IMG/VR virus record: IMGVR_UViG_2706795104_000001 | Coordinates: 1 to 64,000 of that record | Direction: 5' to 3' (one strand) | DNA length: 64,000 bases | From: an uncultured virus (IMG/VR IMGVR_UViG_2706795104_000001) | Taxonomy: Duplodnaviria > Heunggongvirae > Uroviricota > Caudoviricetes > Herelleviridae | In this document: piece by piece, positions 30,011-57,759 of the stretch | Numbering within the stretch: position 1 is the stretch's first letter | How the letters are laid out: each line of letters begins with the position of its first letter | Program-made: the position numbers and the translations under genes | The notes under the pieces: model-generated | What the model was told of the DNA's origin: nothing | Database searches by the model: none | What the model saw: the letters and a program-made list of their open reading frames with translations, nothing else

Positions 30011-30515
30011 CCTATTTTAGTTTACCCTATTTAAATCAAAGCTATTCTGACCCATTTAGAATTTCTGTCATATTTAAAACCCTTGCTATGACTGACTTTA
30101 GAGACTATTTGAACATATTTTTGTCCTATTTAAATTATAACTGGTCTGTATTTATATTATTATATTTATTATTAAGTACTATTATTACTATTAATTATTA
30201 TATAAATTAAATAGGACAAACGTTAAAATTTAAATAGGACATTTTTTATTCATTTTTGACATATTTAAATGGTACTAATTTGACTGTATCTTCAAGTAGT
30301 TCTCTATTTGATGTTACTGTTAAACCTTGATACATATATACTTGAGATAGATTCAAGTTAGAACTACTTTTTATTTGAAGTAGTCAAAAAGTTATAATTA
30401 AATAGGACATAAAATAGAGAAAACATGTACCATTTAAATTATAAGTGGTATGTATATATAATTATATTATTTATAGTTAATGTATTAATAGTAATTATAA
30501 TAAATATTAATATTA
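30011..30515. repeat. AT-rich region with iterated TGT(C/A)C(T/C)ATTTAA motifs in both orientations (candidate replication origin)
   Basis: Copies at 30024, 30122, 30206, 30228, 30263, 30397, 30426 around near-pure A/T tracts. Confidence 0.55.
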
Positions 30516-30592
30516 GGAAGGACGATCCGAAATGGAAATCATCTTCAAATAAAAAATATTTAAAAAAGTTTTAAAAAAGATGGTCTCTAGGG

Positions 30593-30621
30593 TTGTACTA
30601 GGTTACAGTGTGTGCTATAAT
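30593..30621 (+). promoter_or_regulatory. sigmaA-type promoter of the tRNA region
   Basis: TTGTAC-17-TATAAT with extended TG. Confidence 0.7.
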
Positions 30622-30627
30622 CTAATT

Positions 30628-30788
30628 AGGCTTTGATATTTAGTAAGTTCAACCACTCCTTATTGGTTAGGGGGCGTATAACGATCCTGTGGAAGGGTGA
30701 CTTATACTTTAGCTCCTAATTTTCTATCTATCACATAACCTATAGATGTTTCTCCTCCGATTTTCATTTATAGGTTATGTAACTTTTT
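30628..30788 (+). ncRNA. candidate sRNA/leader with C-rich loops
   Basis: Hairpins at 30651-30668 and 30733-30780 (16-bp stem, loop TTTCTCCTCCGATTTT) plus T-tract. Confidence 0.4.
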
Positions 30789-30793
30789 ATTAC

Positions 30794-30882
30794 GGAAGGG
30801 TACTCAAGTTGGTGAAGAGGTCAGTTTGCTAAACTGATAGTACCTATTACAGGTAGCAAGGGTTCGAACCCCTTTCCTTCCA
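30794..30882 (+). tRNA. tRNA-Ser(GCT)
   Basis: Cloverleaf, TCAGT-TTGCTAA-ACTGA, long variable arm, GGTTCGAACC. Confidence 0.9.
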
Positions 30883-30892
30883 TATTTATTGT

Positions 30893-30966
30893 GAGGGTGT
30901 ACCGAAGCGGCTCAACGGCACAGATTGCAACCCTGTTGTTCGTGGGTTCAAATCCCACCATCCTCT
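30893..30966 (+). tRNA. tRNA-Cys(GCA)
   Basis: Cloverleaf, loop TTGCAAC, GGTTCAAATCC. Confidence 0.88.
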
Positions 30967-31011
30967 TACTAGTGTGTTATAATGAATTTATGTTATAATA
31001 TATACTATAAC

Positions 31012-31087
31012 GTGCTTGTAGCTCAGTCGGTAGAGCTGGTGGCTGTTAACCACTGTGTCGTAGGTTCGATTCCTACCTAGCACGCCA
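31012..31087 (+). tRNA. tRNA-Asn(GTT)
   Basis: Loop CTGTTAA, encoded CCA. Confidence 0.92.
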
Positions 31088-31090
31088 AAT

Positions 31091-31165
31091 GGGGCATTGG
31101 TATATTGGCTATTACTCTTGGCTTCCAACCAAGCAAGGTCGGTTCGATTCCGACATGTCCCTCCA
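31091..31165 (+). tRNA. tRNA-Gly(TCC)
   Basis: CTTGG-CTTCCAA-CCAAG, TCCA end. Confidence 0.92.
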
Positions 31166-31169
31166 TAAC

Positions 31170-31243
31170 GGCTCGTTAGTTTAACGGTAAAATACATGAC
31201 TGTCTATCATGGGTCACGGGTTCAACTCCCGTACGGGTCGCCA
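31170..31243 (+). tRNA. tRNA-Asp(GTC)
   Basis: CATGA-CTGTCTA-TCATG, GCCA end. Confidence 0.9.
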
Positions 31244-31252
31244 TTCTATCGT

Positions 31253-31326
31253 GGCGCATTGGTGAAGCGGTTTAACACACTCGGCTTTCTACCGAGGATG
31301 CGTGGGTTCGATCCCCACATGCGCTA
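31253..31326 (+). tRNA. tRNA-Glu(TTC)
   Basis: CTCGG-CTTTCTA-CCGAG. Confidence 0.88.
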
Positions 31327-31329
31327 TAA

Positions 31330-31402
31330 ATCCCTTTAGCCAAGTGGTCAAGGCAGTAGGATTATGTCCTGCGTAGCGGAGGTTCGACTCCTCCAAGGGG
31401 CG
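31330..31402 (+). tRNA. tRNA with TAT anticodon (nominally Ile, AUA-reading)
   Basis: GTAGG-ATTATGT-CCTGC, GGTTCGACTCC; 1-72 mismatch. Confidence 0.7.
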
Positions 31403-31411
31403 CACAATGGT

Positions 31412-31519
31412 TTCCTGTGTATCCGTGCCCAAAACAGGAATATTCACCTAACTATTCGAGTTAGGCTATGGACGTATGAGCCATGCGTTGTGACGGGGCA
31501 ACGATAAAACCCGTCTTTT
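31412..31519 (+). ncRNA. unidentified four-hairpin structured RNA between tRNAs
   Basis: TTCCTGT/ACAGGAA, CCTAACT/AGTTAGG, ATGG/CCAT, GACGGG/CCCGTC. Confidence 0.4.
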
Positions 31520-31523
31520 CTTT

Positions 31524-31597
31524 ACCCCTTTAGCCAAGTGGACTAAGGCAACGGGCTTCTATCCCGAAGATCGTGGGTTCAAATCCTACAGGGGGTG
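31524..31597 (+). tRNA. tRNA-Arg(TCT)
   Basis: Loop CTTCTAT, GGTTCAAATCC. Confidence 0.88.
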
Positions 31598-31599
31598 TA

Positions 31600-31682
31600 A
31601 ACTTAGTCGGGAAGAGTGTCAGGTTAGCACACTTCACCGTAGGTGTTGTAGGTAGGGTTCAAATCCCGTTGTCGGCTAAGTT
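31600..31682 (+). ncRNA. degenerate tRNA-like RNA (pseudo-tRNA) with an 11-bp terminal stem
   Basis: AACTTAGTCGG/TCGGCTAAGTT, D-like arm, GGGTTCAAATCCC T-loop, broken anticodon stem. Confidence 0.5.
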
Positions 31683-31688
31683 AAATAT

Positions 31689-31773
31689 CAGGGAATACTC
31701 AAACGGTTAAGAGGGTAGTCTTGAAAACTACTAGGCGTGAAAGCGTGCGGGGGTTCGAATCCCTCTTCCTCGG
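31689..31773 (+). tRNA. tRNA-Ser(TGA)
   Basis: GTAGT-CTTGAAA-ACTAC, long variable arm. Confidence 0.88.
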
Positions 31774-31808
31774 CTTAAAAAAAAAATTAAAAAACTTTGA
31801 TTATATGC

Positions 31809-31837
31809 TTGCATCAAGTTACAGGCTATGATACAAT
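31809..31837 (+). promoter_or_regulatory. sigmaA-type promoter inside the tRNA cluster
   Basis: TTGCAT-17-TACAAT with extended TG and A-tract UP element. Confidence 0.7.
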
Positions 31838-31854
31838 GATTACAAGTTAAACAT

Positions 31855-31928
31855 TTCGGTGTGGACAAACTGGTAAAGTCGTCAGGCTTTGACCCTGAAG
31901 TTTGGAGGTTCGACCCCTTCCACCGAAG
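31855..31928 (+). tRNA. tRNA-Gln(TTG)
   Basis: TCAGG-CTTTGAC-CCTGA. Confidence 0.9.
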
Positions 31929-32006
31929 TATATCCAAGGTCACACCTTGGAAACTAAGCCTAATAGCCTACAATGGTTAACGTGACCACTTATTAGACTT
32001 AGTTTC

Positions 32007-32080
32007 CAGTGTGTGGTGAAGTGGCTTAACACGGACGACTGTGGATCGTTCATTCGCAGGTTCGAATCCTGTCATGCTGA
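32007..32080 (+). tRNA. tRNA-His(GTG)
   Basis: GACGA-CTGTGGA-TCGTT, GGTTCGAATCC. Confidence 0.85.
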
Positions 32081-32176
32081 TACTTCAATTGATTCCTCCT
32101 ACAGGGATGCGTCCTGAGTAGGTTAAAACTTTTAGGTGCTGAAGTCACTGGGTTATAGGTACCTAGCTCTTATTAC

Positions 32177-32249
32177 GTGGATATAGGCTAGTTGGTCAGT
32201 CACTCCGTTTGGGGCGGAGGTCACGCAGGTTCGACTCCTGCTATCCGCA
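32177..32249 (+). tRNA. tRNA-Pro(TGG)
   Basis: CTCCG-TTTGGGG-CGGAG. Confidence 0.88.
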
Positions 32250-32350
32250 TTTTGTTTATGTTTAGGTTTTTCACGTAGGGTGTTCATCATTAGGAGAAAT
32301 ATAATTTGGGGGATGAACGTTTGATATGGGCTGGCAACCTTACACAATAT

Positions 32351-32425
32351 GGATAGATAGCTGAGATGGATTAGCGAGTGGTTGAAACCCACTAGAGGTT
32401 GGATCGTTACCAACTCTGTCCACCA
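32351..32425 (+). tRNA. tRNA-Phe(GAA)
   Basis: AGTGG-TTGAAAC-CCACT, atypical T-loop ATCGTTA, ACCA end. Confidence 0.82.
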
Positions 32426-32431
32426 AAATAT

Positions 32432-32514
32432 GGGCGTGCAATCATTGGAGAGATAAGCTGACTGTAAATCAGTGGTCATTGACTGTGAAGGTTCGAATCC
32501 TTCCATTCCCACCA
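32432..32514 (+). tRNA. tRNA-Tyr(GTA)
   Basis: GCTGA-CTGTAAA-TCAGT, variable arm, ACCA end. Confidence 0.9.
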
Positions 32515-32515
32515 T

Positions 32516-32602
32516 ATCGGAATGTTGGAATTGGTAGACATAACGGACTTAAAATCCGTTGCTCCTTGGGGCGTGAGGGTTCGAGTCCCTCTTCCGATAC
32601 CA
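32516..32602 (+). tRNA. tRNA-Leu(TAA)
   Basis: ACGGA-CTTAAAA-TCCGT, ACCA end. Confidence 0.92.
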
Positions 32603-32603
32603 T

Positions 32604-32678
32604 ACTAGTGTAGCTCAGAGGTAGAGCAGTGTCTTGATAAGGCATTGGTCGTTGGTTCAATCCCAACCACTAGTACCA
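32604..32678 (+). tRNA. tRNA-Ile(GAT)
   Basis: GTGTC-TTGATAA-GGCAT, ACCA end. Confidence 0.92.
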
Positions 32679-32686
32679 TTTAATAT

Positions 32687-32768
32687 GTCGGAGTGTTGGA
32701 ACTGGTATACATGCGGCACTTAGAATGCCGTGCCTTCGGGATTGAGGGTTCGACTCCCTCCTTCGACA
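32687..32768 (+). tRNA. tRNA-Leu(TAG)
   Basis: CGGCA-CTTAGAA-TGCCG. Confidence 0.9.
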
Positions 32769-32774
32769 TCAAAT

Positions 32775-32826
32775 GCAGAGTGCAATTAACGATTGTCTAT
32801 GAGGTCGTTCCTCACATTCTGCTCCA
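32775..32826 (+). ncRNA. 52-nt mini-tRNA-like RNA with CCA end
   Basis: GCAGAGTG/CATTCTGC acceptor stem plus TCCA; only two small internal hairpins. Confidence 0.6.
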
Positions 32827-32832
32827 TATTAT

Positions 32833-32916
32833 GGGGGAGAGAAACTTAAAGGCAAGAGGTAAGCCAGTGGTCTCCAAAACCACCGTTAAGAGGTTCGATT
32901 CCTCCCTCCCCTGCCA
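32833..32916 (+). tRNA. tRNA-Trp(CCA)
   Basis: GTGGT-CTCCAAA-ACCAC, enlarged D region, GCCA end. Confidence 0.82.
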
Positions 32917-32921
32917 AATAT

Positions 32922-32993
32922 ACGGTTATAGCTCAGTGGTAGAGTGTGGGTCTCATAAGCCCAAGGTCGATGGTTCAATCCCATCTAACCGTA
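32922..32993 (+). tRNA. tRNA-Met/Ile2(CAT)
   Basis: TGGGT-CTCATAA-GCCCA. Confidence 0.88.
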
Positions 32994-33039
32994 TCGCTTT
33001 AGTGTGTTTAAAATTGATAATTTAATAGGGGGAATTGAA

Positions 33040-33669
33040 ATGGAAAAGATGTCAGTTCAACGTGGTTTAATGGAGTTAAAAACTTTAGGTAATCGTATCA
33101 CTCGTGCCACTCAACAACCTTTCGTATCTTTCTACGTAGGTGATAAGGGTGCTCCACAAGGATTCAAGACACCTGAAGAGTTCTCCGCATACGCTCAAGG
33201 TCGTTATGACTCTGCTACGGACTTAATTAAGCGCAGAAACGCAATTAAAGCTGCGATTATCCAGTCTAATGCAGTAACTAAGGTTACTGTAGCAGGAAAG
33301 TCAATGACAGTTGCAGAAGCAATTGACCGTAAGGACTCAATTGTTCACGAGAAAGTTCTCTTACAACAACTGCAATCGCAGTTCAGTGAGATTACTAGAC
33401 GTGTAGTTTCTCAACAACAAGTGTTAGACGCTCGAATTGATAAGGTTTTAGAAGAGGAAGGTGGCAAAGACCGTAAGGTTGATGACGCTGACCACGCTCG
33501 CATTGTAAAAAATGCAGAGTCTCGCTACAAACCAAATCTAGTTGATCCTATCGGTATCCGTAAAGTGATTGAACAGATGGAAGAAGACATTAGCTCATTC
33601 GAGTTAGATGTTGATGCTTCATTATCTGAAATCAACGCTCGTACGGACATCGAGTTCGAAGTGAAATAG
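33040..33669 (+). CDS. DIP1984/DUF6847-like long helical-hairpin protein
   Basis: ATG after GGGGGA; MSV..GL.ELK.L..RI, I..SNA.T.V...G.MTVAEAI..K, D..LSE.NA.T.IE. Confidence 0.75.
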   Translation: MEKMSVQRGLMELKTLGNRITRATQQPFVSFYVGDKGAPQGFKTPEEFSAYAQGRYDSATDLIKRRNAIKAAIIQSNAVTKVTVAGKSMTVAEAIDRKDSIVHEKVLLQQLQSQFSEITRRVVSQQQVLDARIDKVLEEEGGKDRKVDDADHARIVKNAESRYKPNLVDPIGIRKVIEQMEEDISSFELDVDASLSEINARTDIEFEVK

Positions 33670-55722: not shown

Positions 55723-57759
55723 GTGGAAGATTTTGACTACACACCACTGTCCTCTATGAGGTTTCAGGCTCAACTAGGATCAGAAGTTAAACGTATGTAC
55801 AAAGAGGGAGAGAATGTTATTAAACTCTCCCTTGCTAGGGTTACAAAGGTTAACTACAAGTACAATACAGTAGAAGTTATGACAACATTACATAAAAATT
55901 CAACATCGAAGAACCCGAGTGATAACGGTAAATACTCTGCTAGATTGCCTGTAATGTTTGGTGGACGTACACCTGAAGGAAAAGTATATGGTTCGAATAC
56001 AATTGTTACAGTCGGATCGTTAGTTTTAATTGGATTCCTAGAAGGTAATAAAGACCACCCTATTGTTTTAAACATCTATGGGGATGCAGATAATCAGTCG
56101 ATGTTAACACGTACAACGATGACAGGTGGAGACGAATCAGACGAAGCAGTCCAACGTGAACTATGGCAGTTATTTACTTTATACCCTTCTATGACATATC
56201 AGAATATTGATGGTCGAGGGAATAAGGAAGTAACGTTCTCAGGTAAATCCTTTATGTATATTACAGACTCAGACCCTGGGAACGAGTACGTACAGGACGG
56301 AGCTTTCGATTACGCAGACTTACCTAGTTCTCGTTATGCAAATGGTGAACTAATCGAACCAACGTCTCCTAACTCTCCTACCGTATTATACGTCCACCAA
56401 GGGATTTATGACAACCATAGAGTTACATTCTTCCTTAAATCGGACGGAACTCTTCGTGTAGGTAGTAGACATAGAAATGGTAAAGGTATTACATACCAAG
56501 AAATGAAAACAGACGGATCGTTCTCTATCGTGCAGAAGCATGATACAACAGACCCTGAAGAGATTTCTAAAAAGTTCTCTAAGTTTGAAATTTCTGAAAA
56601 TGGTGATGTTACAATCCAATCTCTAGACCACAAATTAACCATCACAAAAGATGGTGTACTGATTGACGGTAAGCCAATCGGTTCAGGTGGTGGAGGAGGA
56701 GACCTTGAGATTATCAAGGACTTACAAGAAAAGGTAGAGGGCGTAACAACACAGATAACAATGGTAAACGGTAAGCTAGATTTCAAGATTGATAAGATTG
56801 AAATTGAGATAGACTTAGACACACTTCGACAGGAGCAACAGAAGGTACTAGATAGTATCCGAGAGAAGCTAGATGGACTTTCTAGTGCGTTAAAAGCTAT
56901 GAAGGACTATACGATCCCTGCATTCGAGGATGGAACCGTTACAACAGACGAAAAGAACAAAGTTAATAGTCTTCTAGCTACAGTAAAAAACGAGAAAGCA
57001 AAAGTGGACGAAAAGTATAGCCAAGTTATCTCCGATCCGTTCCTACCAGCTACATATAAAGACTTACTAGGTATAGCCAAAGGTAATTTAGATAGCAGAC
57101 ACCAAGCTCTAATAAACACAATAGAGATTGTCATGCTAGATGGGGTTATCACACCTGATGAGCGTATAGCAGTTAACCAAGCATTCGATGGGTATAACCA
57201 GTCTATCGAAGCAATAGATGTAGCTTTTAAACAAGCAATGGACGCTATTCTAGAAGCTCGTATTAGGGAAGCACAAGAGAATGCAATGAAGTACCGAGAT
57301 ACGGAGATGCGTAAAATCGGTTCACAGATTACGCAACTAGCAGACTCTATTACGGCTAAGGTAAGCTCGGAACAATTGTCGAAAGAAATAGAAGACGTTC
57401 GTTCTGAAATGGCTACAAAGGAAGAACAGAAGGAAATTAAGGACACATTAGAACAAGCACAAAAAGATATTGACGAAGCCGTAACAAACCTTCCGTATCG
57501 AGTAGAGTTAGGAAGTACCAATGGACTTATCTTTAAAAACAATAACATTGATACTGTCATCTATGCAAAGGTATATAAAGGTAAAGACGAGATTACGTCA
57601 CAGATTCCAAAAGAGCAATTTATTTGGAAACGTGTCTCTGATGATGCAGACGGAGACCTTGCTTGGGATGTAGCCCACAAGAACATCGGTAGCTCATTCA
57701 AAGCTACAAAGGAAGATGTCCCTATGAGGGCAACGTTCTCATGTGACTTGGACATTTAA
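55723..57759 (+). CDS. baseplate spike / central tail protein
   Basis: gp5-like OB N-terminus (LARVTKVNY...GSLVLIGFLEG...PIVL) followed by coiled coil. Confidence 0.7.
   Translation: MEDFDYTPLSSMRFQAQLGSEVKRMYKEGENVIKLSLARVTKVNYKYNTVEVMTTLHKNSTSKNPSDNGKYSARLPVMFGGRTPEGKVYGSNTIVTVGSLVLIGFLEGNKDHPIVLNIYGDADNQSMLTRTTMTGGDESDEAVQRELWQLFTLYPSMTYQNIDGRGNKEVTFSGKSFMYITDSDPGNEYVQDGAFDYADLPSSRYANGELIEPTSPNSPTVLYVHQGIYDNHRVTFFLKSDGTLRVGSRHRNGKGITYQEMKTDGSFSIVQKHDTTDPEEISKKFSKFEISENGDVTIQSLDHKLTITKDGVLIDGKPIGSGGGGGDLEIIKDLQEKVEGVTTQITMVNGKLDFKIDKIEIEIDLDTLRQEQQKVLDSIREKLDGLSSALKAMKDYTIPAFEDGTVTTDEKNKVNSLLATVKNEKAKVDEKYSQVISDPFLPATYKDLLGIAKGNLDSRHQALINTIEIVMLDGVITPDERIAVNQAFDGYNQSIEAIDVAFKQAMDAILEARIREAQENAMKYRDTEMRKIGSQITQLADSITAKVSSEQLSKEIEDVRSEMATKEEQKEIKDTLEQAQKDIDEAVTNLPYRVELGSTNGLIFKNNNIDTVIYAKVYKGKDEITSQIPKEQFIWKRVSDDADGDLAWDVAHKNIGSSFKATKEDVPMRATFSCDLDI

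What the first reader, a model, noticed from the sequence alone, without database searches (positions are those of the whole stretch)
32775..32826. 52-nt anticodon-less mini-tRNA with encoded CCA and Gly-like acceptor identity
Seen: 8-bp acceptor helix GCAGAGTG/CATTCTGC + T + CCA, stacked on TGAGG-TCGTT-CCTCA, with one small CAAT-TAACG-ATTG hairpin and no anticodon arm. It is spaced like a normal tRNA between Leu and Trp. Known: G1-C72, C2-G71 and U73 are GlyRS identity elements, and minihelices can be aminoacylated. Inference: a chargeable, non-decoding RNA. It could be a decoy for CCA/acceptor-targeting toxins, an amino-acid donor, or a modulator of ribosome or stringent-response sensing. 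Clean retention of all stems argues against simple decay.
Basis: partly seen in the sequence, partly recalled or inferred. Interest (0 to 1): 0.7.

Follow-up and report, generated by a model that had tools for sequence, protein, structure and literature searches.

The report
Anticodon-less mini-tRNA gene in Bacillus phages
A Bacillus phage carries, inside its tRNA gene cluster, a real and evolutionarily maintained 52-base RNA gene that looks like the top half of a tRNA (acceptor helix plus CCA tail) with no anticodon; it cannot decode and probably acts as a tRNA-end mimic whose job is still unknown.

Summary
In detail: window 32775-32826 (+) encodes an 8-bp acceptor helix, a 4-bp hairpin, a 5-bp T-like stem with a 5-nt loop, then U73-CCA, between tRNA-Leu(UAG) and an odd tRNA-Trp in a Caeruleovirus-like Bacillus phage. 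ARAGORN and Rfam do not call it. I found six distinct variants: Bc431v3, TsarBomba, MarvelLand, two uncultured Herelleviridae-like types and an unrelated 127-kb phage. On these, 96% of pair cells are paired and 6 of 17 pairs changed on both sides (slid controls: 0). Three G.U pairs fit only the tRNA strand. This is a selected RNA, not a recent deletion. It is accessory. Most close relatives lack exactly this unit, and the junction leaves tRNA-Leu with the CCA. The window copy is 90% identical to the copy in the unrelated phage but 74% to Bc431v3, so the module moves horizontally. The 'Gly identity' is only partly there: U73 and G1-C72 are invariant, C2-G71 occurs in 4 of 6 variants and G3-C70 in none. 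No co-occurring protein gene was found, and expression and charging are untested. Best reading: a processed, CCA-ended tRNA top-half mimic acting in trans, possibly a decoy for enzymes that attack tRNA 3' ends. Closest known: the unexplained tRNA-like 'stable RNAs' of the phage T5 and T4 tRNA regions.

The parts
32775..32826 (+). Mini-tRNA gene (52 nt): predicted mature RNA from G1 to the encoded CCA
   Evidence: Sequence. Covariance model R1 scores it 78.8 bits and finds it once in the 152,778-bp genome. Six variants, with 6 of 17 pairs changed on both sides.
32775..32782 (+). 5' strand of the 8-bp acceptor-type helix (pairs with 32815-32822)
   Evidence: Pairs 1, 3, 4 and 8 are invariant. 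Pairs 2, 5, 6 and 7 change on both sides. Pairs 6 and 7 are mismatched in 1 and 3 of the 6 variants.
32783..32795 (+). Side hairpin: 4-bp stem CAAU/AUUG with 5-nt loop UAACG
   Evidence: The second pair is A-U in 2 variants and G-C in 4. The loop core ACG is invariant.
32796..32799 (+). Linker UCUA (4 nt; 5 nt in the Bc431v3 and L013 types)
   Evidence: Alignments A2 and A4.
32800..32814 (+). T-like arm: 5-bp stem UGAGG/CCUCA with a 5-nt loop UCGUU, not the canonical 7-nt T loop
   Evidence: The third pair is A-U in 2 variants and G-C in 4. The loop UCGU is invariant, and its CGU is complementary to the hairpin-loop ACG.
32815..32822 (+). 3' strand of the acceptor-type helix
32823..32826 (+). 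Discriminator U73 and encoded CCA
   Evidence: Invariant in 6 of 6 variants.
32769..32774 (+). 5' leader UCAAAU. A(-2) and U(-1) are invariant in all six variants, including the copy in a different tRNA context
   Evidence: Alignment A2 invariant columns; sequence. That U(-1) suits bacterial RNase P is recalled knowledge, not tested.
32687..32768 (+). Upstream tRNA-Leu(UAG). It lacks CCA in phages that carry the mini unit (A|UCA) and has CCA in those that lack the unit
32833..32916 (+). Downstream 84-nt tRNA-Trp(CCA) with an oversized D region; it is a neighbour, not part of the unit
   Evidence: Rfam partial hit of 29.5 bits; missed by ARAGORN; fold; conserved in all relatives.

Best explanation
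This is a genuine small-RNA gene of the phage tRNA operon. It is an anticodon-less mimic of the top half of a tRNA. Shown: it folds as a three-way junction whose helices are kept by compensatory substitutions, on the tRNA strand. G1-C72, A3-U70, G4-C69, U73, CCA, U(-1) and the two loop cores are invariant. It is single-copy, dispensable, and exchanged between unrelated phages. Inferred: it is transcribed with the tRNAs and cut at U(-1)|G1 by RNase P. After RNase P cuts the 5' end of tRNA-Trp, its 6-nt trailer is trimmed back to the encoded CCA by the exonuclease route that Bacillus uses for CCA-encoding precursors. This would give a 52-53-nt RNA with a free UCCA end that cannot decode. Inferred mechanism: it acts in trans by occupying a factor that recognises the acceptor helix and CCA tail of free tRNAs. 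My preferred version is a competitive decoy or sink for host enzymes that attack tRNA 3' ends during infection (CCA-tail nucleases, 3'-end-modifying toxins). I put that version at about 0.2-0.25 on its own. The odds that it is a selected structured RNA are about 0.85-0.9.
For: Structure under selection: on six distinct variants, 96.1% of 102 pair cells are standard pairs and 6 of 17 pairs changed on both sides. Slid controls give 0 such pairs and 39-59% pairing; 0 of 500 shuffles reach the pairing or the covariation score (four-sequence version). Window against Bc431v3: 13 substitutions plus 1 indel, and 12 of the 13 substitutions fall in 6 pairs that stay paired. The flanking 1 kb is 92% identical. 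The G.U or U.G pairs at pair 6 (window, TsarBomba type) and pair 2 (L013 type) work only on the + strand RNA. The three-way-junction fold is the MFE in 4 of 6 variants. Autonomy: the unrelated 127-kb phage G001 carries the unit between different tRNA-like genes. G001 shares 10 of 191 ORFs of >=100 aa with this genome, and its portal is about 31% identical to phiCD211-like phages. Its copy is 90.4% identical to the window copy, against 73.6% for window versus Bc431v3. Homology starts at A(-2)U(-1) and ends just after the CCA. Processing logic: passage in PMC8097732 on RNase P, RNase Z for CCA-less precursors and RNase PH for CCA-containing precursors in B. subtilis. [quoted passage not shown] A TLD-only tmRNA is carried by phage DS6A, and a similar molecule inhibits tmRNA, perhaps by titrating SmpB (PMC4131195 passage). 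Accessory, patchy distribution: 5 of 11 whole phage records searched with R1 carry it.
Against: There is no evidence of expression, processing or stability. The sequencing runs laid were contigs only and show presence or absence, not transcripts. Most close relatives do without the unit (8 of 11 sequences), so any benefit is conditional. Pairs 6 and 7 of the acceptor helix are mismatched in the TsarBomba, MarvelLand and G001 copies. The T-like loop has 5 nt, not 7, so canonical elbow contacts (RNase P S-domain, T-loop enzymes) may be poor. A stoichiometric decoy against a multiple-turnover enzyme needs very high abundance. No phage protein co-occurs with it, so no partner is identified. No specific defence system was shown in any host.
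Confidence: 0.5

Rival explanations
1. Chargeable non-decoding amino-acid carrier. A synthetase (GlyRS or CysRS, both of which use U73) aminoacylates the minihelix. The aminoacyl-RNA would then feed a ribosome-independent transferase, or bait toxins that act on aminoacyl-tRNA.
For: U73, G1-C72 and CCA are invariant (6 of 6) and G71 is present in 5 of 6 variants. The review PMC9976931 lists U73, G1-C72 and C2-G71 for bacterial Gly. It also states that U73 alone confers Cys identity on minihelices, and that TacT recognises U73+G71.
Against: C2-G71 holds in only 4 of 6 variants, G3-C70 in 0 of 6, and C35/C36 are absent. The phage's own tRNA-Gly(UCC) has G2-C71, not C2-G71. No transferase or other protein gene co-occurs with the unit. 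Charging could not be tested.
Confidence: 0.15
2. Functionless remnant: an old internally deleted tRNA that hitch-hikes in the operon and is being lost.
For: It is absent from most relatives, and the loss is precise. The T loop is non-canonical. Acceptor pairs 6 and 7 are mismatched in 3 of 6 variants. No phage tRNA in nine genomes shares its acceptor sequence, so its origin is obscure.
Against: Six pairs are compensated on both sides against 0 in the slid controls. The loops, U73, CCA and U(-1) are invariant across phages that share almost no genes. The unit was retained after transfer into a different tRNA context. A neutral 52-nt remnant would not keep 96% pairing at 74-90% identity.
Confidence: 0.12
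3. Purely cis-acting processing element (like the t-elements of plant mitochondria). On this view it is a tRNA-shaped RNase P site that only helps to release the CCA-less tRNA-Leu or the odd tRNA-Trp, and the excised piece is discarded.
For: In the Herelleviridae copies the upstream tRNA-Leu lacks CCA whenever the unit is present (5 of 5 distinct carriers) and has CCA whenever it is absent (8 of 8).
Against: Both neighbours are themselves RNase P/RNase Z substrates, and they are processed in the many phages without the unit. In G001 the upstream tRNA-like gene already ends in UCCA and the neighbours differ. Invariant loops and an encoded CCA are not needed for a mere cut site. The CCA correlation is explained by where the deletion junction lies.
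Confidence: 0.1
4. Titration of a translation-quality-control or regulatory tRNA binder rather than a defence enzyme. Examples are SmpB (as proposed for TLD-only tmRNA) or the NCCA-sensing part of T-box riboswitches for U73 tRNAs.
For: The architecture resembles a tmRNA tRNA-like domain: acceptor, T-type arm, small side element, no anticodon arm. There is a precedent in phage DS6A (PMC4131195 passage).
Against: There is no G3.U70 (A3-U70 in 6 of 6), U73 rather than the A73 of tmRNA (the latter recalled), and no tmRNA model match at the site at E<=10. T-box binding normally needs the anticodon (recalled knowledge).
Confidence: 0.06
5. DNA-level element (recombination or endonuclease site, cruciform) rather than an RNA.
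For: It shows presence/absence polymorphism with sharp junctions, and HNH endonuclease genes occur in the tRNA regions of some relatives (annotation rows).
Against: The G.U wobble pairs would be A/C mismatches on the other strand. The unit boundaries coincide with tRNA-type RNA ends (U-1|G1 ... CCA). It lies on the same strand as all 19 tRNAs.
Confidence: 0.02

Closest known systems
Stable RNAs of the phage T5 tRNA region (RNA3, RNA1, RNA2, RNAI, RNAIII, RNAIV, RNA2H, RNAX in AY543070.1) and T4 RNAC/RNAD
   Same: Small non-decoding RNAs encoded among phage tRNA genes on the tRNA strand. Several are annotated as 'tRNA-like stable RNA with unknown functions'. T5 RNA3 (73 nt) folds as a terminal acceptor-type helix, one hairpin and a T-type arm, and ends in ACCA. 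T4 RNAC and RNAD come from the tRNA region and their roles are unknown (passages in PMC3014915, and PMC9697503).
   Different: No homology: model R1 gives no significant match in 20 kb of the T5 tRNA region (best 13.6 bits, E 0.11, on a tRNA-Ser). This unit is smaller (52-53 nt against 73-719 nt). It has a 5-nt T-like loop and U73, and it occurs in phages of Gram-positive hosts. For this unit the RNA itself has not been seen.
tmRNA tRNA-like domain, especially the 'TLD only' tmRNA of Mycobacterium phage DS6A
   Same: Acceptor helix, T-type arm and CCA without an anticodon arm; phage-encoded. A similar molecule inhibits tmRNA, perhaps by titrating SmpB (PMC4131195 passages), which is a precedent for a decoy role.
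   Different: The alanine mark G3.U70 is absent (A3-U70 in 6 of 6). There is no match to tmRNA models at this site. I did not examine the DS6A sequence itself.
Synthetic acceptor/T-arm minihelices and truncated tRNAs used as enzyme substrates
   Same: A coaxial acceptor and T-type helix with a single-stranded NCCA is enough for several tRNA-end enzymes. Minihelices are charged by HisRS, and U73 minihelices by CysRS (PMC9976931 passages). Truncated acceptor-stem+CCA RNAs are cleaved by Cas12a3 (PMC12851939 passages).
   Different: Those are laboratory constructs. This unit is a natural gene with an extra side hairpin, a 13-bp (8+5) stack instead of 12, and a non-canonical loop.
Other anticodon-less, CCA-ended mini-RNAs noted by this scan in phage tRNA arrays (e1-5733862, e1-5849858, e1-5743525, e1-5983558, e1-5986674)
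   Same: The same general design and genomic setting in unrelated phages (AI notes).
   Different: No sequence look-alike of this unit is in the scan's index. Those notes are unchecked by me. This case has six variants with covariation and evidence of transfer between phage lineages.

Membership tests
Canonical tRNA (Rfam RF00005) | Cloverleaf with an anticodon arm, detected by tRNA finders | tested here: not met
   ARAGORN: 18 genes, none here. Rfam at E<=10: 19 tRNA matches in the cluster, none overlapping 32775-32826. Only one 4-bp hairpin with a 5-nt loop lies between the acceptor and T-like stems.
Canonical tRNA (Rfam RF00005) | 7-nt T loop on a 5-bp T stem | tested here: not met
   The stem has 5 bp, but the loop is UCGUU or UCGUC (5 nt) in 6 of 6 variants.
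Canonical tRNA (Rfam RF00005) | Acceptor helix followed by a discriminator and CCA | tested here: met
   8-bp helix (7 Watson-Crick pairs plus G.U) followed by U-CCA. CCA is encoded in 6 of 6 variants.
Bacterial tRNA-Gly acceptor identity (PMC9976931, Table 1) | U73 and G1-C72 | tested here: met
   6 of 6 variants.
Bacterial tRNA-Gly acceptor identity (PMC9976931, Table 1) | C2-G71 | tested here: inconclusive
   C-G in 4 of 6 variants, U-A in 1 and U.G in 1. Present in the window copy but not conserved.
Bacterial tRNA-Gly acceptor identity (PMC9976931, Table 1) | G3-C70, and anticodon bases C35 and C36 | tested here: not met
   A3-U70 in 6 of 6 variants. There is no anticodon arm.
Bacterial tRNA-Gly acceptor identity (PMC9976931, Table 1) | Aminoacylation by GlyRS | not testable with these tools
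   Needs an in vitro charging assay.
tmRNA tRNA-like domain / TLD-only tmRNA | G3.U70 alanine identity pair | tested here: not met
   A3-U70 in 6 of 6 variants.
tmRNA tRNA-like domain / TLD-only tmRNA | Match to tmRNA covariance models | tested here: not met
   The only tmRNA-model matches in 30500-33300 lie elsewhere (31655-31667 and 32487-32584).
Phage tRNA-operon stable RNAs (T5 RNA1-3, RNAI-IV; T4 RNAC/RNAD) | Encoded among the phage tRNA genes, on the same strand, and non-decoding | tested here: met
   It lies between tRNA-Leu and tRNA-Trp on the + strand like all 19 tRNAs.
Phage tRNA-operon stable RNAs (T5 RNA1-3, RNAI-IV; T4 RNAC/RNAD) | Observed as a stable processed RNA in infected cells | not testable with these tools
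   The runs found were contigs only, with no read-level RNA ends.
Phage tRNA-operon stable RNAs (T5 RNA1-3, RNAI-IV; T4 RNAC/RNAD) | Sequence or structure homology to the T5 RNAs | tested here: not met
   R1 against the T5 tRNA region with filters off: best 13.6 bits, E 0.11, on a tRNA, none on the annotated stable RNAs. T4 was not searched.
Minimal bacterial RNase P substrate (acceptor/T minihelix) | Coaxial acceptor and T-type helix of about 12 bp, 3' NCCA, U at -1 | tested here: met
   8+5 = 13 bp with a continuous 3' strand, UCCA, and U(-1) invariant in 6 of 6 variants. The substrate rules themselves are recalled knowledge.
Minimal bacterial RNase P substrate (acceptor/T minihelix) | Actual cleavage by RNase P | not testable with these tools
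   Needs an in vitro assay or 5'-end mapping.

The most novel reading that the evidence does not exclude
The unit is a horizontally mobile phage counter-defence RNA. It would be an abundant tRNA top-half decoy, excised from the tRNA operon, that soaks up or blocks host immune enzymes aimed at the universal CCA tail or acceptor end of tRNAs (CCA-tail nucleases such as Cas12a3 or HEPN-type RNases, 3'-end pyrophosphorylating or nucleotidylating toxins). That would answer how phages can resist an attack that variant phage tRNAs cannot evade. It would also give a function to the long-unexplained tRNA-like stable RNAs of phage tRNA clusters.
Probability: 0.18. Interest if true: 0.85.

Novelty: new variant of a known kind. 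Interest (0 to 1): 0.6.

Why it matters
Small non-decoding RNAs in phage tRNA operons have long been annotated in T4 and T5 without a function. This unit is a compact case of only 52 nt. Its helices are supported by covariation, its invariant residues are known, and natural knock-outs exist (close relatives with a precise deletion). It occurs in cultured phages (Bc431v3, TsarBomba, MarvelLand) and shows signs of spread between unrelated phages. That makes the question testable by comparing isogenic or near-isogenic phages on host panels and by pulling down its partner. If it turns out to be a decoy for enzymes that attack tRNA ends, it would be a new class of RNA-based counter-defence. If it is charged, it would be a natural minihelix substrate of a synthetase. 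It is unannotated in all three GenBank records and absent from Rfam.

Tried and rejected
(1) Partner gene by co-occurrence. I ran tblastn with 522 ORFs (>=50 aa) of this genome against four carriers (Bc431v3, TsarBomba, MarvelLand, G001) and four non-carriers (Hobo, PK16, JBP901, BC01). The only ORF with a carrier-like profile (57521-57673) is an out-of-frame ORF inside a 678-aa tail gene, so I rejected it.

(2) Link to the phage Thg1-like gene (115183-115923). The gene is present in both carriers and non-carriers and absent from G001 and JBP901, so there is no link. No PF01743 CCA-adding enzyme is present in the genome.

(3) Origin from a known tRNA. None of 162 ARAGORN tRNAs in nine phage genomes shares the GCAG/GUAG...U73 acceptor; the only two hits are tRNA-Pro with another 3' end.

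(4) More family members. After a structural filter, 17 of 240 pattern hits remained. Of these, 14 are the known phage types and 3 (L061, L117, L190) are unrelated GC-rich sequence. No bacterial genome carries the unit. Two further viral scans plus R1 gave only weak hits (L369, L371, L372, L373; 21-29 bits) with no tRNA nearby, and I rejected them. One search used a pattern with an off-by-one error and is void.

(5) Expression. Runs holding parts of the region were all Logan contigs. Laying four of them showed one contig with the unit (X2, 3 differences over 32746-33008) and two contigs that join across it (X7 skips 58 nt, X1 skips 61 nt). This shows polymorphism and gives no information on transcription.

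(6) Promoter and terminator scan of 30300-33400: not above shuffles.

(7) Alternative inner helix (the MFE of the window copy): compatible in all six variants, but with 0 pairs changed on both sides. I keep it only as a possible loop-loop contact or second conformer.

(9) Supplementary tables of the Bc431v3 paper (the tRNA list) could not be seen. The main-text passages mention 20 tRNAs and no small RNA.

Full report
OBSERVATION. Window 32775-32826 (+) reads GCAGAGTG / CAAT-TAACG-ATTG / TCTA / TGAGG-TCGTT-CCTCA / CATTCTGC / T / CCA. The two 8-nt ends pair as 7 Watson-Crick pairs plus one G.U. The unit starts 6 nt after the discriminator of tRNA-Leu(UAG) (32768) and ends 6 nt before G1 of tRNA-Trp (32833). 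It has no anticodon arm. ARAGORN finds 18 tRNAs in the window and none here. Rfam at E<=10 returns 34 matches in 30500-33300, 19 of them tRNA, and none overlaps the unit. The 52-mer folds at -17.3 kcal/mol, z = -4.0, with 0 of 200 shuffles as good. For this copy the MFE keeps the acceptor helix but replaces the two small hairpins with one inner helix.

SETTING. The window belongs to a 152,778-bp virus record. Its tRNA region is 87-97% identical to Bacillus phages of Herelleviridae, Bastillevirinae, genus Caeruleovirus: Bc431v3, Hobo/BM15, JBP901, PK16 and others. All 19 tRNA matches of the genome lie in one + strand cluster at 30794-32995.

RELATIVES. An alignment of the Leu-to-Met interval from 11 phages shows the unit in only the window and Bc431v3. 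Eight phages lack it: Hobo, JBP901, PK16, BMBsp2, BC-VP, BCP8-2, Xoo-sp15 and CM1. BC01 has a different spacer with a terminator-like hairpin. A sensitive blastn search of the 76-nt region against 50,697 phage records hit 10 records. Five are real (Bc431v3 twice, TsarBomba twice, MarvelLand) and five are E = 8 noise. Pattern scans of IMG/VR gave 7 stretches. After a structural filter these added only further copies of the same phage types and no bacterial copy.

There are six distinct variants: the window; Bc431v3 (= L017); the L013 type (also L015, L016, L019, L035, L062, L074); TsarBomba (= L018); MarvelLand; and L014. L014 lies in G001, a complete 127-kb uncultured phage. G001 shares only 10 of 191 ORFs of >=100 aa with this genome. 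Its portal is about 31% identical to phiCD211-like Clostridioides phages and 27-28% to Lactococcus phages P1048 and PMBT69. It matches Bacillus phages at the DNA level only in tRNAs. In G001 the unit sits between different, odd tRNA-like genes. A covariance model (R1) finds exactly one copy in each carrier. It finds none anywhere in the complete records of Hobo, BCP8-2, BC01, PK16, JBP901 and CM1, so 5 of 11 records are positive.

STRUCTURE IS UNDER SELECTION. On the six variants aligned to the model, 96.1% of 102 pair cells are standard pairs and 6 of 17 pairs changed on both sides. These are acceptor pairs 2, 5, 6 and 7, hairpin pair 2 and T-stem pair 3. Sliding the 3' partners by 1-3 columns gives 0 such pairs and 39-59% pairing. 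None of 500 shuffles reaches the observed pairing or covariation score. A MAFFT alignment of four variants gives the same picture. Between the window and Bc431v3 there are 13 substitutions and one indel, and 12 of the 13 substitutions fall in six pairs that remain paired. Pair 2 shows C-G, U.G and U-A, a complete compensatory path. The G.U and U.G pairs fit only an RNA of the + strand.

The two-hairpin junction is the MFE in 4 of 6 variants. The alternative inner helix is compatible everywhere but has no pair changed on both sides. It rests on invariant complementarity between the two loops (ACG and CGU), which could equally be a loop-loop contact like the D/T elbow of tRNA. That last point is inference.

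Invariant in all six variants are G1-C72, A3-U70, G4-C69, G8-C, U73, CCA, A(-2)U(-1), the hairpin-loop ACG and the T-like loop UCGU. There are weak points. Acceptor pair 6 is mismatched in G001, and pair 7 is mismatched in TsarBomba, MarvelLand and G001. The T-like loop has 5 nt, not 7.

ACCESSORY AND MOBILE. In carriers the upstream tRNA-Leu ends ...A|UCA and lacks CCA. In non-carriers it ends ...A|CCA followed by a spacer resembling the one after the unit's CCA: Hobo has ACCA-TACTA-TGGGGG and the window has TCCA-TATTA-TGGGGG. The difference is therefore exactly 'leader plus unit up to its discriminator', which leaves tRNA-Leu with the unit's CCA. The two acceptor types of tRNA-Leu cut across presence and absence: Bc431v3 and JBP901/CM1 share one type, Hobo and PK16 the other. 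So more than one loss or exchange is likely. Environmental contigs show both states. One contig holds the unit with 3 differences over 263 nt, and two contigs join across it, skipping 58 and 61 nt.

The window copy is 90.4% identical to the G001 copy but only 73.6% to that of its close relative Bc431v3. There are thus two alleles, with A-U or G-C in the two small stems, and they are distributed by horizontal exchange rather than by phage phylogeny. A second odd tRNA-like element of the cluster (31599-31688) is similarly patchy. The operon is a mosaic of small RNA modules.

WHAT IT IS NOT. It is not a tRNA, because the anticodon arm and the 7-nt T loop are missing. It is not a tmRNA domain, because it has A3-U70 instead of G3.U70 and matches no tmRNA model. 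It is not homologous to the T5 stable RNAs. It is not a recent deletion of a tRNA present in relatives. It is not tied to any phage protein gene that I could find.

IDENTITY. I compared it with the bacterial Gly set of PMC9976931 (Table 1 and the glycine-identity section as shown). U73 and G1-C72 hold in 6 of 6 variants, C2-G71 in 4 of 6, and G3-C70 in 0 of 6. C35 and C36 cannot exist. The phage's own tRNA-Gly(UCC) has G2-C71. The same review states that U73 alone gives minihelices cysteine identity, and that the toxin TacT recognises U73 with G71; G71 is present in 5 of 6 variants. 'Gly-like' is thus only a partial and non-conserved resemblance, and charging remains untested.

HOW IT MOST LIKELY WORKS. 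Shown: a selected RNA structure with a tRNA-type 5' boundary and an encoded UCCA end, dispensable and mobile. Inferred from Bacillus tRNA processing (passage in PMC8097732): RNase P cuts at U(-1)|G1. RNase P cutting at tRNA-Trp leaves a 6-nt trailer, which the exonuclease route for CCA-containing precursors trims to CCA. The upstream CCA-less tRNA-Leu goes through RNase Z and CCA addition. The product would be a 52-53-nt 'top half of a tRNA' that cannot decode.

Its sequence freedom in pairs 2 and 5-7, combined with strict conservation of the end (G1-C72, U73, CCA) and of the loops, suggests recognition by shape plus the 3' end rather than by a full synthetase identity set. Its patchy, horizontally exchanged distribution is typical of conditional, host-specific functions.

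I therefore favour a trans-acting mimic that occupies a factor binding free tRNA acceptor ends. The most attractive version is a decoy for defence enzymes that attack tRNA 3' ends. [quoted passage not shown] Its discoverers note that phage tRNAs cannot evade it and that other, unknown means of resistance would be needed (PMC12851939 passages). A phage TLD-only tmRNA with a proposed titration role is a precedent (PMC4131195 passages). None of this is shown for the present unit. The rivals (amino-acid carrier, remnant, cis processing signal, SmpB or T-box titration, DNA element) are weighed in their own sections.

COMPARISON AND NOVELTY. The kind is known: non-decoding, tRNA-like stable RNAs in phage tRNA operons. 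T5 has RNA1-3, RNAI, RNAIII, RNAIV, RNA2H and RNAX, annotated 'unknown functions'. T5 RNA3 folds into a similar acceptor, hairpin and T-arm shape ending in ACCA. T4 has RNAC and RNAD. The present family is not homologous to these and is the smallest of them. It occurs in phages of Gram-positive bacteria and is unannotated in the three GenBank records that carry it. It is not mentioned in the Bc431v3 paper passages I saw (its supplementary tRNA table could not be seen) and is absent from Rfam. Full-text searches for phage anticodon-less or mini-tRNA mimics returned no paper describing it. Earlier AI notes of this scan report analogous CCA-ended mini-RNAs in other phages, but no look-alike of this sequence.

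VERDICT. The unit is a real new variant of a known but unexplained kind. Expression and function are open.

Noticed in passing
window 32833-32916 (+): An 84-nt tRNA-Trp(CCA) with 27 nt between the acceptor and anticodon stems (an oversized, poorly paired D region) and a 4-bp T stem. ARAGORN misses it and Rfam gives only a partial 29.5-bit hit. The Bc431v3 record flags its counterpart as a 'possible pseudogene'. Even so, it is 82-100% conserved in all seven Herelleviridae relatives compared.
   Followed up: partly
window 31599-31688 (+): Another unannotated tRNA-like element. It has an 11-bp terminal helix (AACUUAGUCGG/UCGGCUAAGUU), a GGG-UUCAAAU-CCC T-type arm and no CCA; z = -2.95. Its distribution is patchy: 100% identical in PK16, 98.8% in TsarBomba and MarvelLand, and absent from Bc431v3, Hobo, JBP901, BC01 and G001.
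   Followed up: partly
window 31404-31522 (+): A 119-nt gap in the tRNA cluster with three hairpins and a terminator-like hairpin followed by a U run (z = -2.6). It is conserved at 92-97% in Bc431v3, PK16 and JBP901.
   Followed up: no
L014:1590-1692 (-) and L014:1447-1530 (-), phage G001: The mini unit in G001 is flanked by two odd genes. One is a roughly 100-nt tRNA-like RNA with acceptor GUUCUGU/ACAGAAC, a canonical T arm and U-CCA that ARAGORN does not call. The other is an 82-nt gene that ARAGORN calls tRNA-Ala(agc).
   Followed up: no
L010 ~1378-1433 (Bacillus phage BC01): At the place of the mini unit, BC01 has an unrelated spacer of about 56 nt with a terminator-like hairpin (GACAGGU-ugcuc-ACCUGUC followed by CCUUUUU) between tRNA-Leu and tRNA-Trp.
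   Followed up: no
L007 ~940-1020 (Bacillus phage BCP8-2): BCP8-2 has an extra insert of about 80 nt with a T-arm-like GAGGTTCAATTCCTC between tRNA-Trp and tRNA-Met. The other ten sequences of the alignment lack it (columns 195-282).
   Followed up: no
G000:C1:115183-115923 (+), outside the window: A Thg1-like (tRNA-His guanylyltransferase family, PF04446) gene scoring 113 bits. It is present in Bc431v3, Hobo, PK16, TsarBomba, MarvelLand and BC01 but not in JBP901 or G001.
   Followed up: partly
L011 313-388 (TsarBomba) and L012 313-390 (MarvelLand): The tRNA-Leu(tag) of the Tsarbombavirus phages is only 76-78 nt long, so it lacks the long variable arm expected of a bacterial tRNA-Leu.
   Followed up: no
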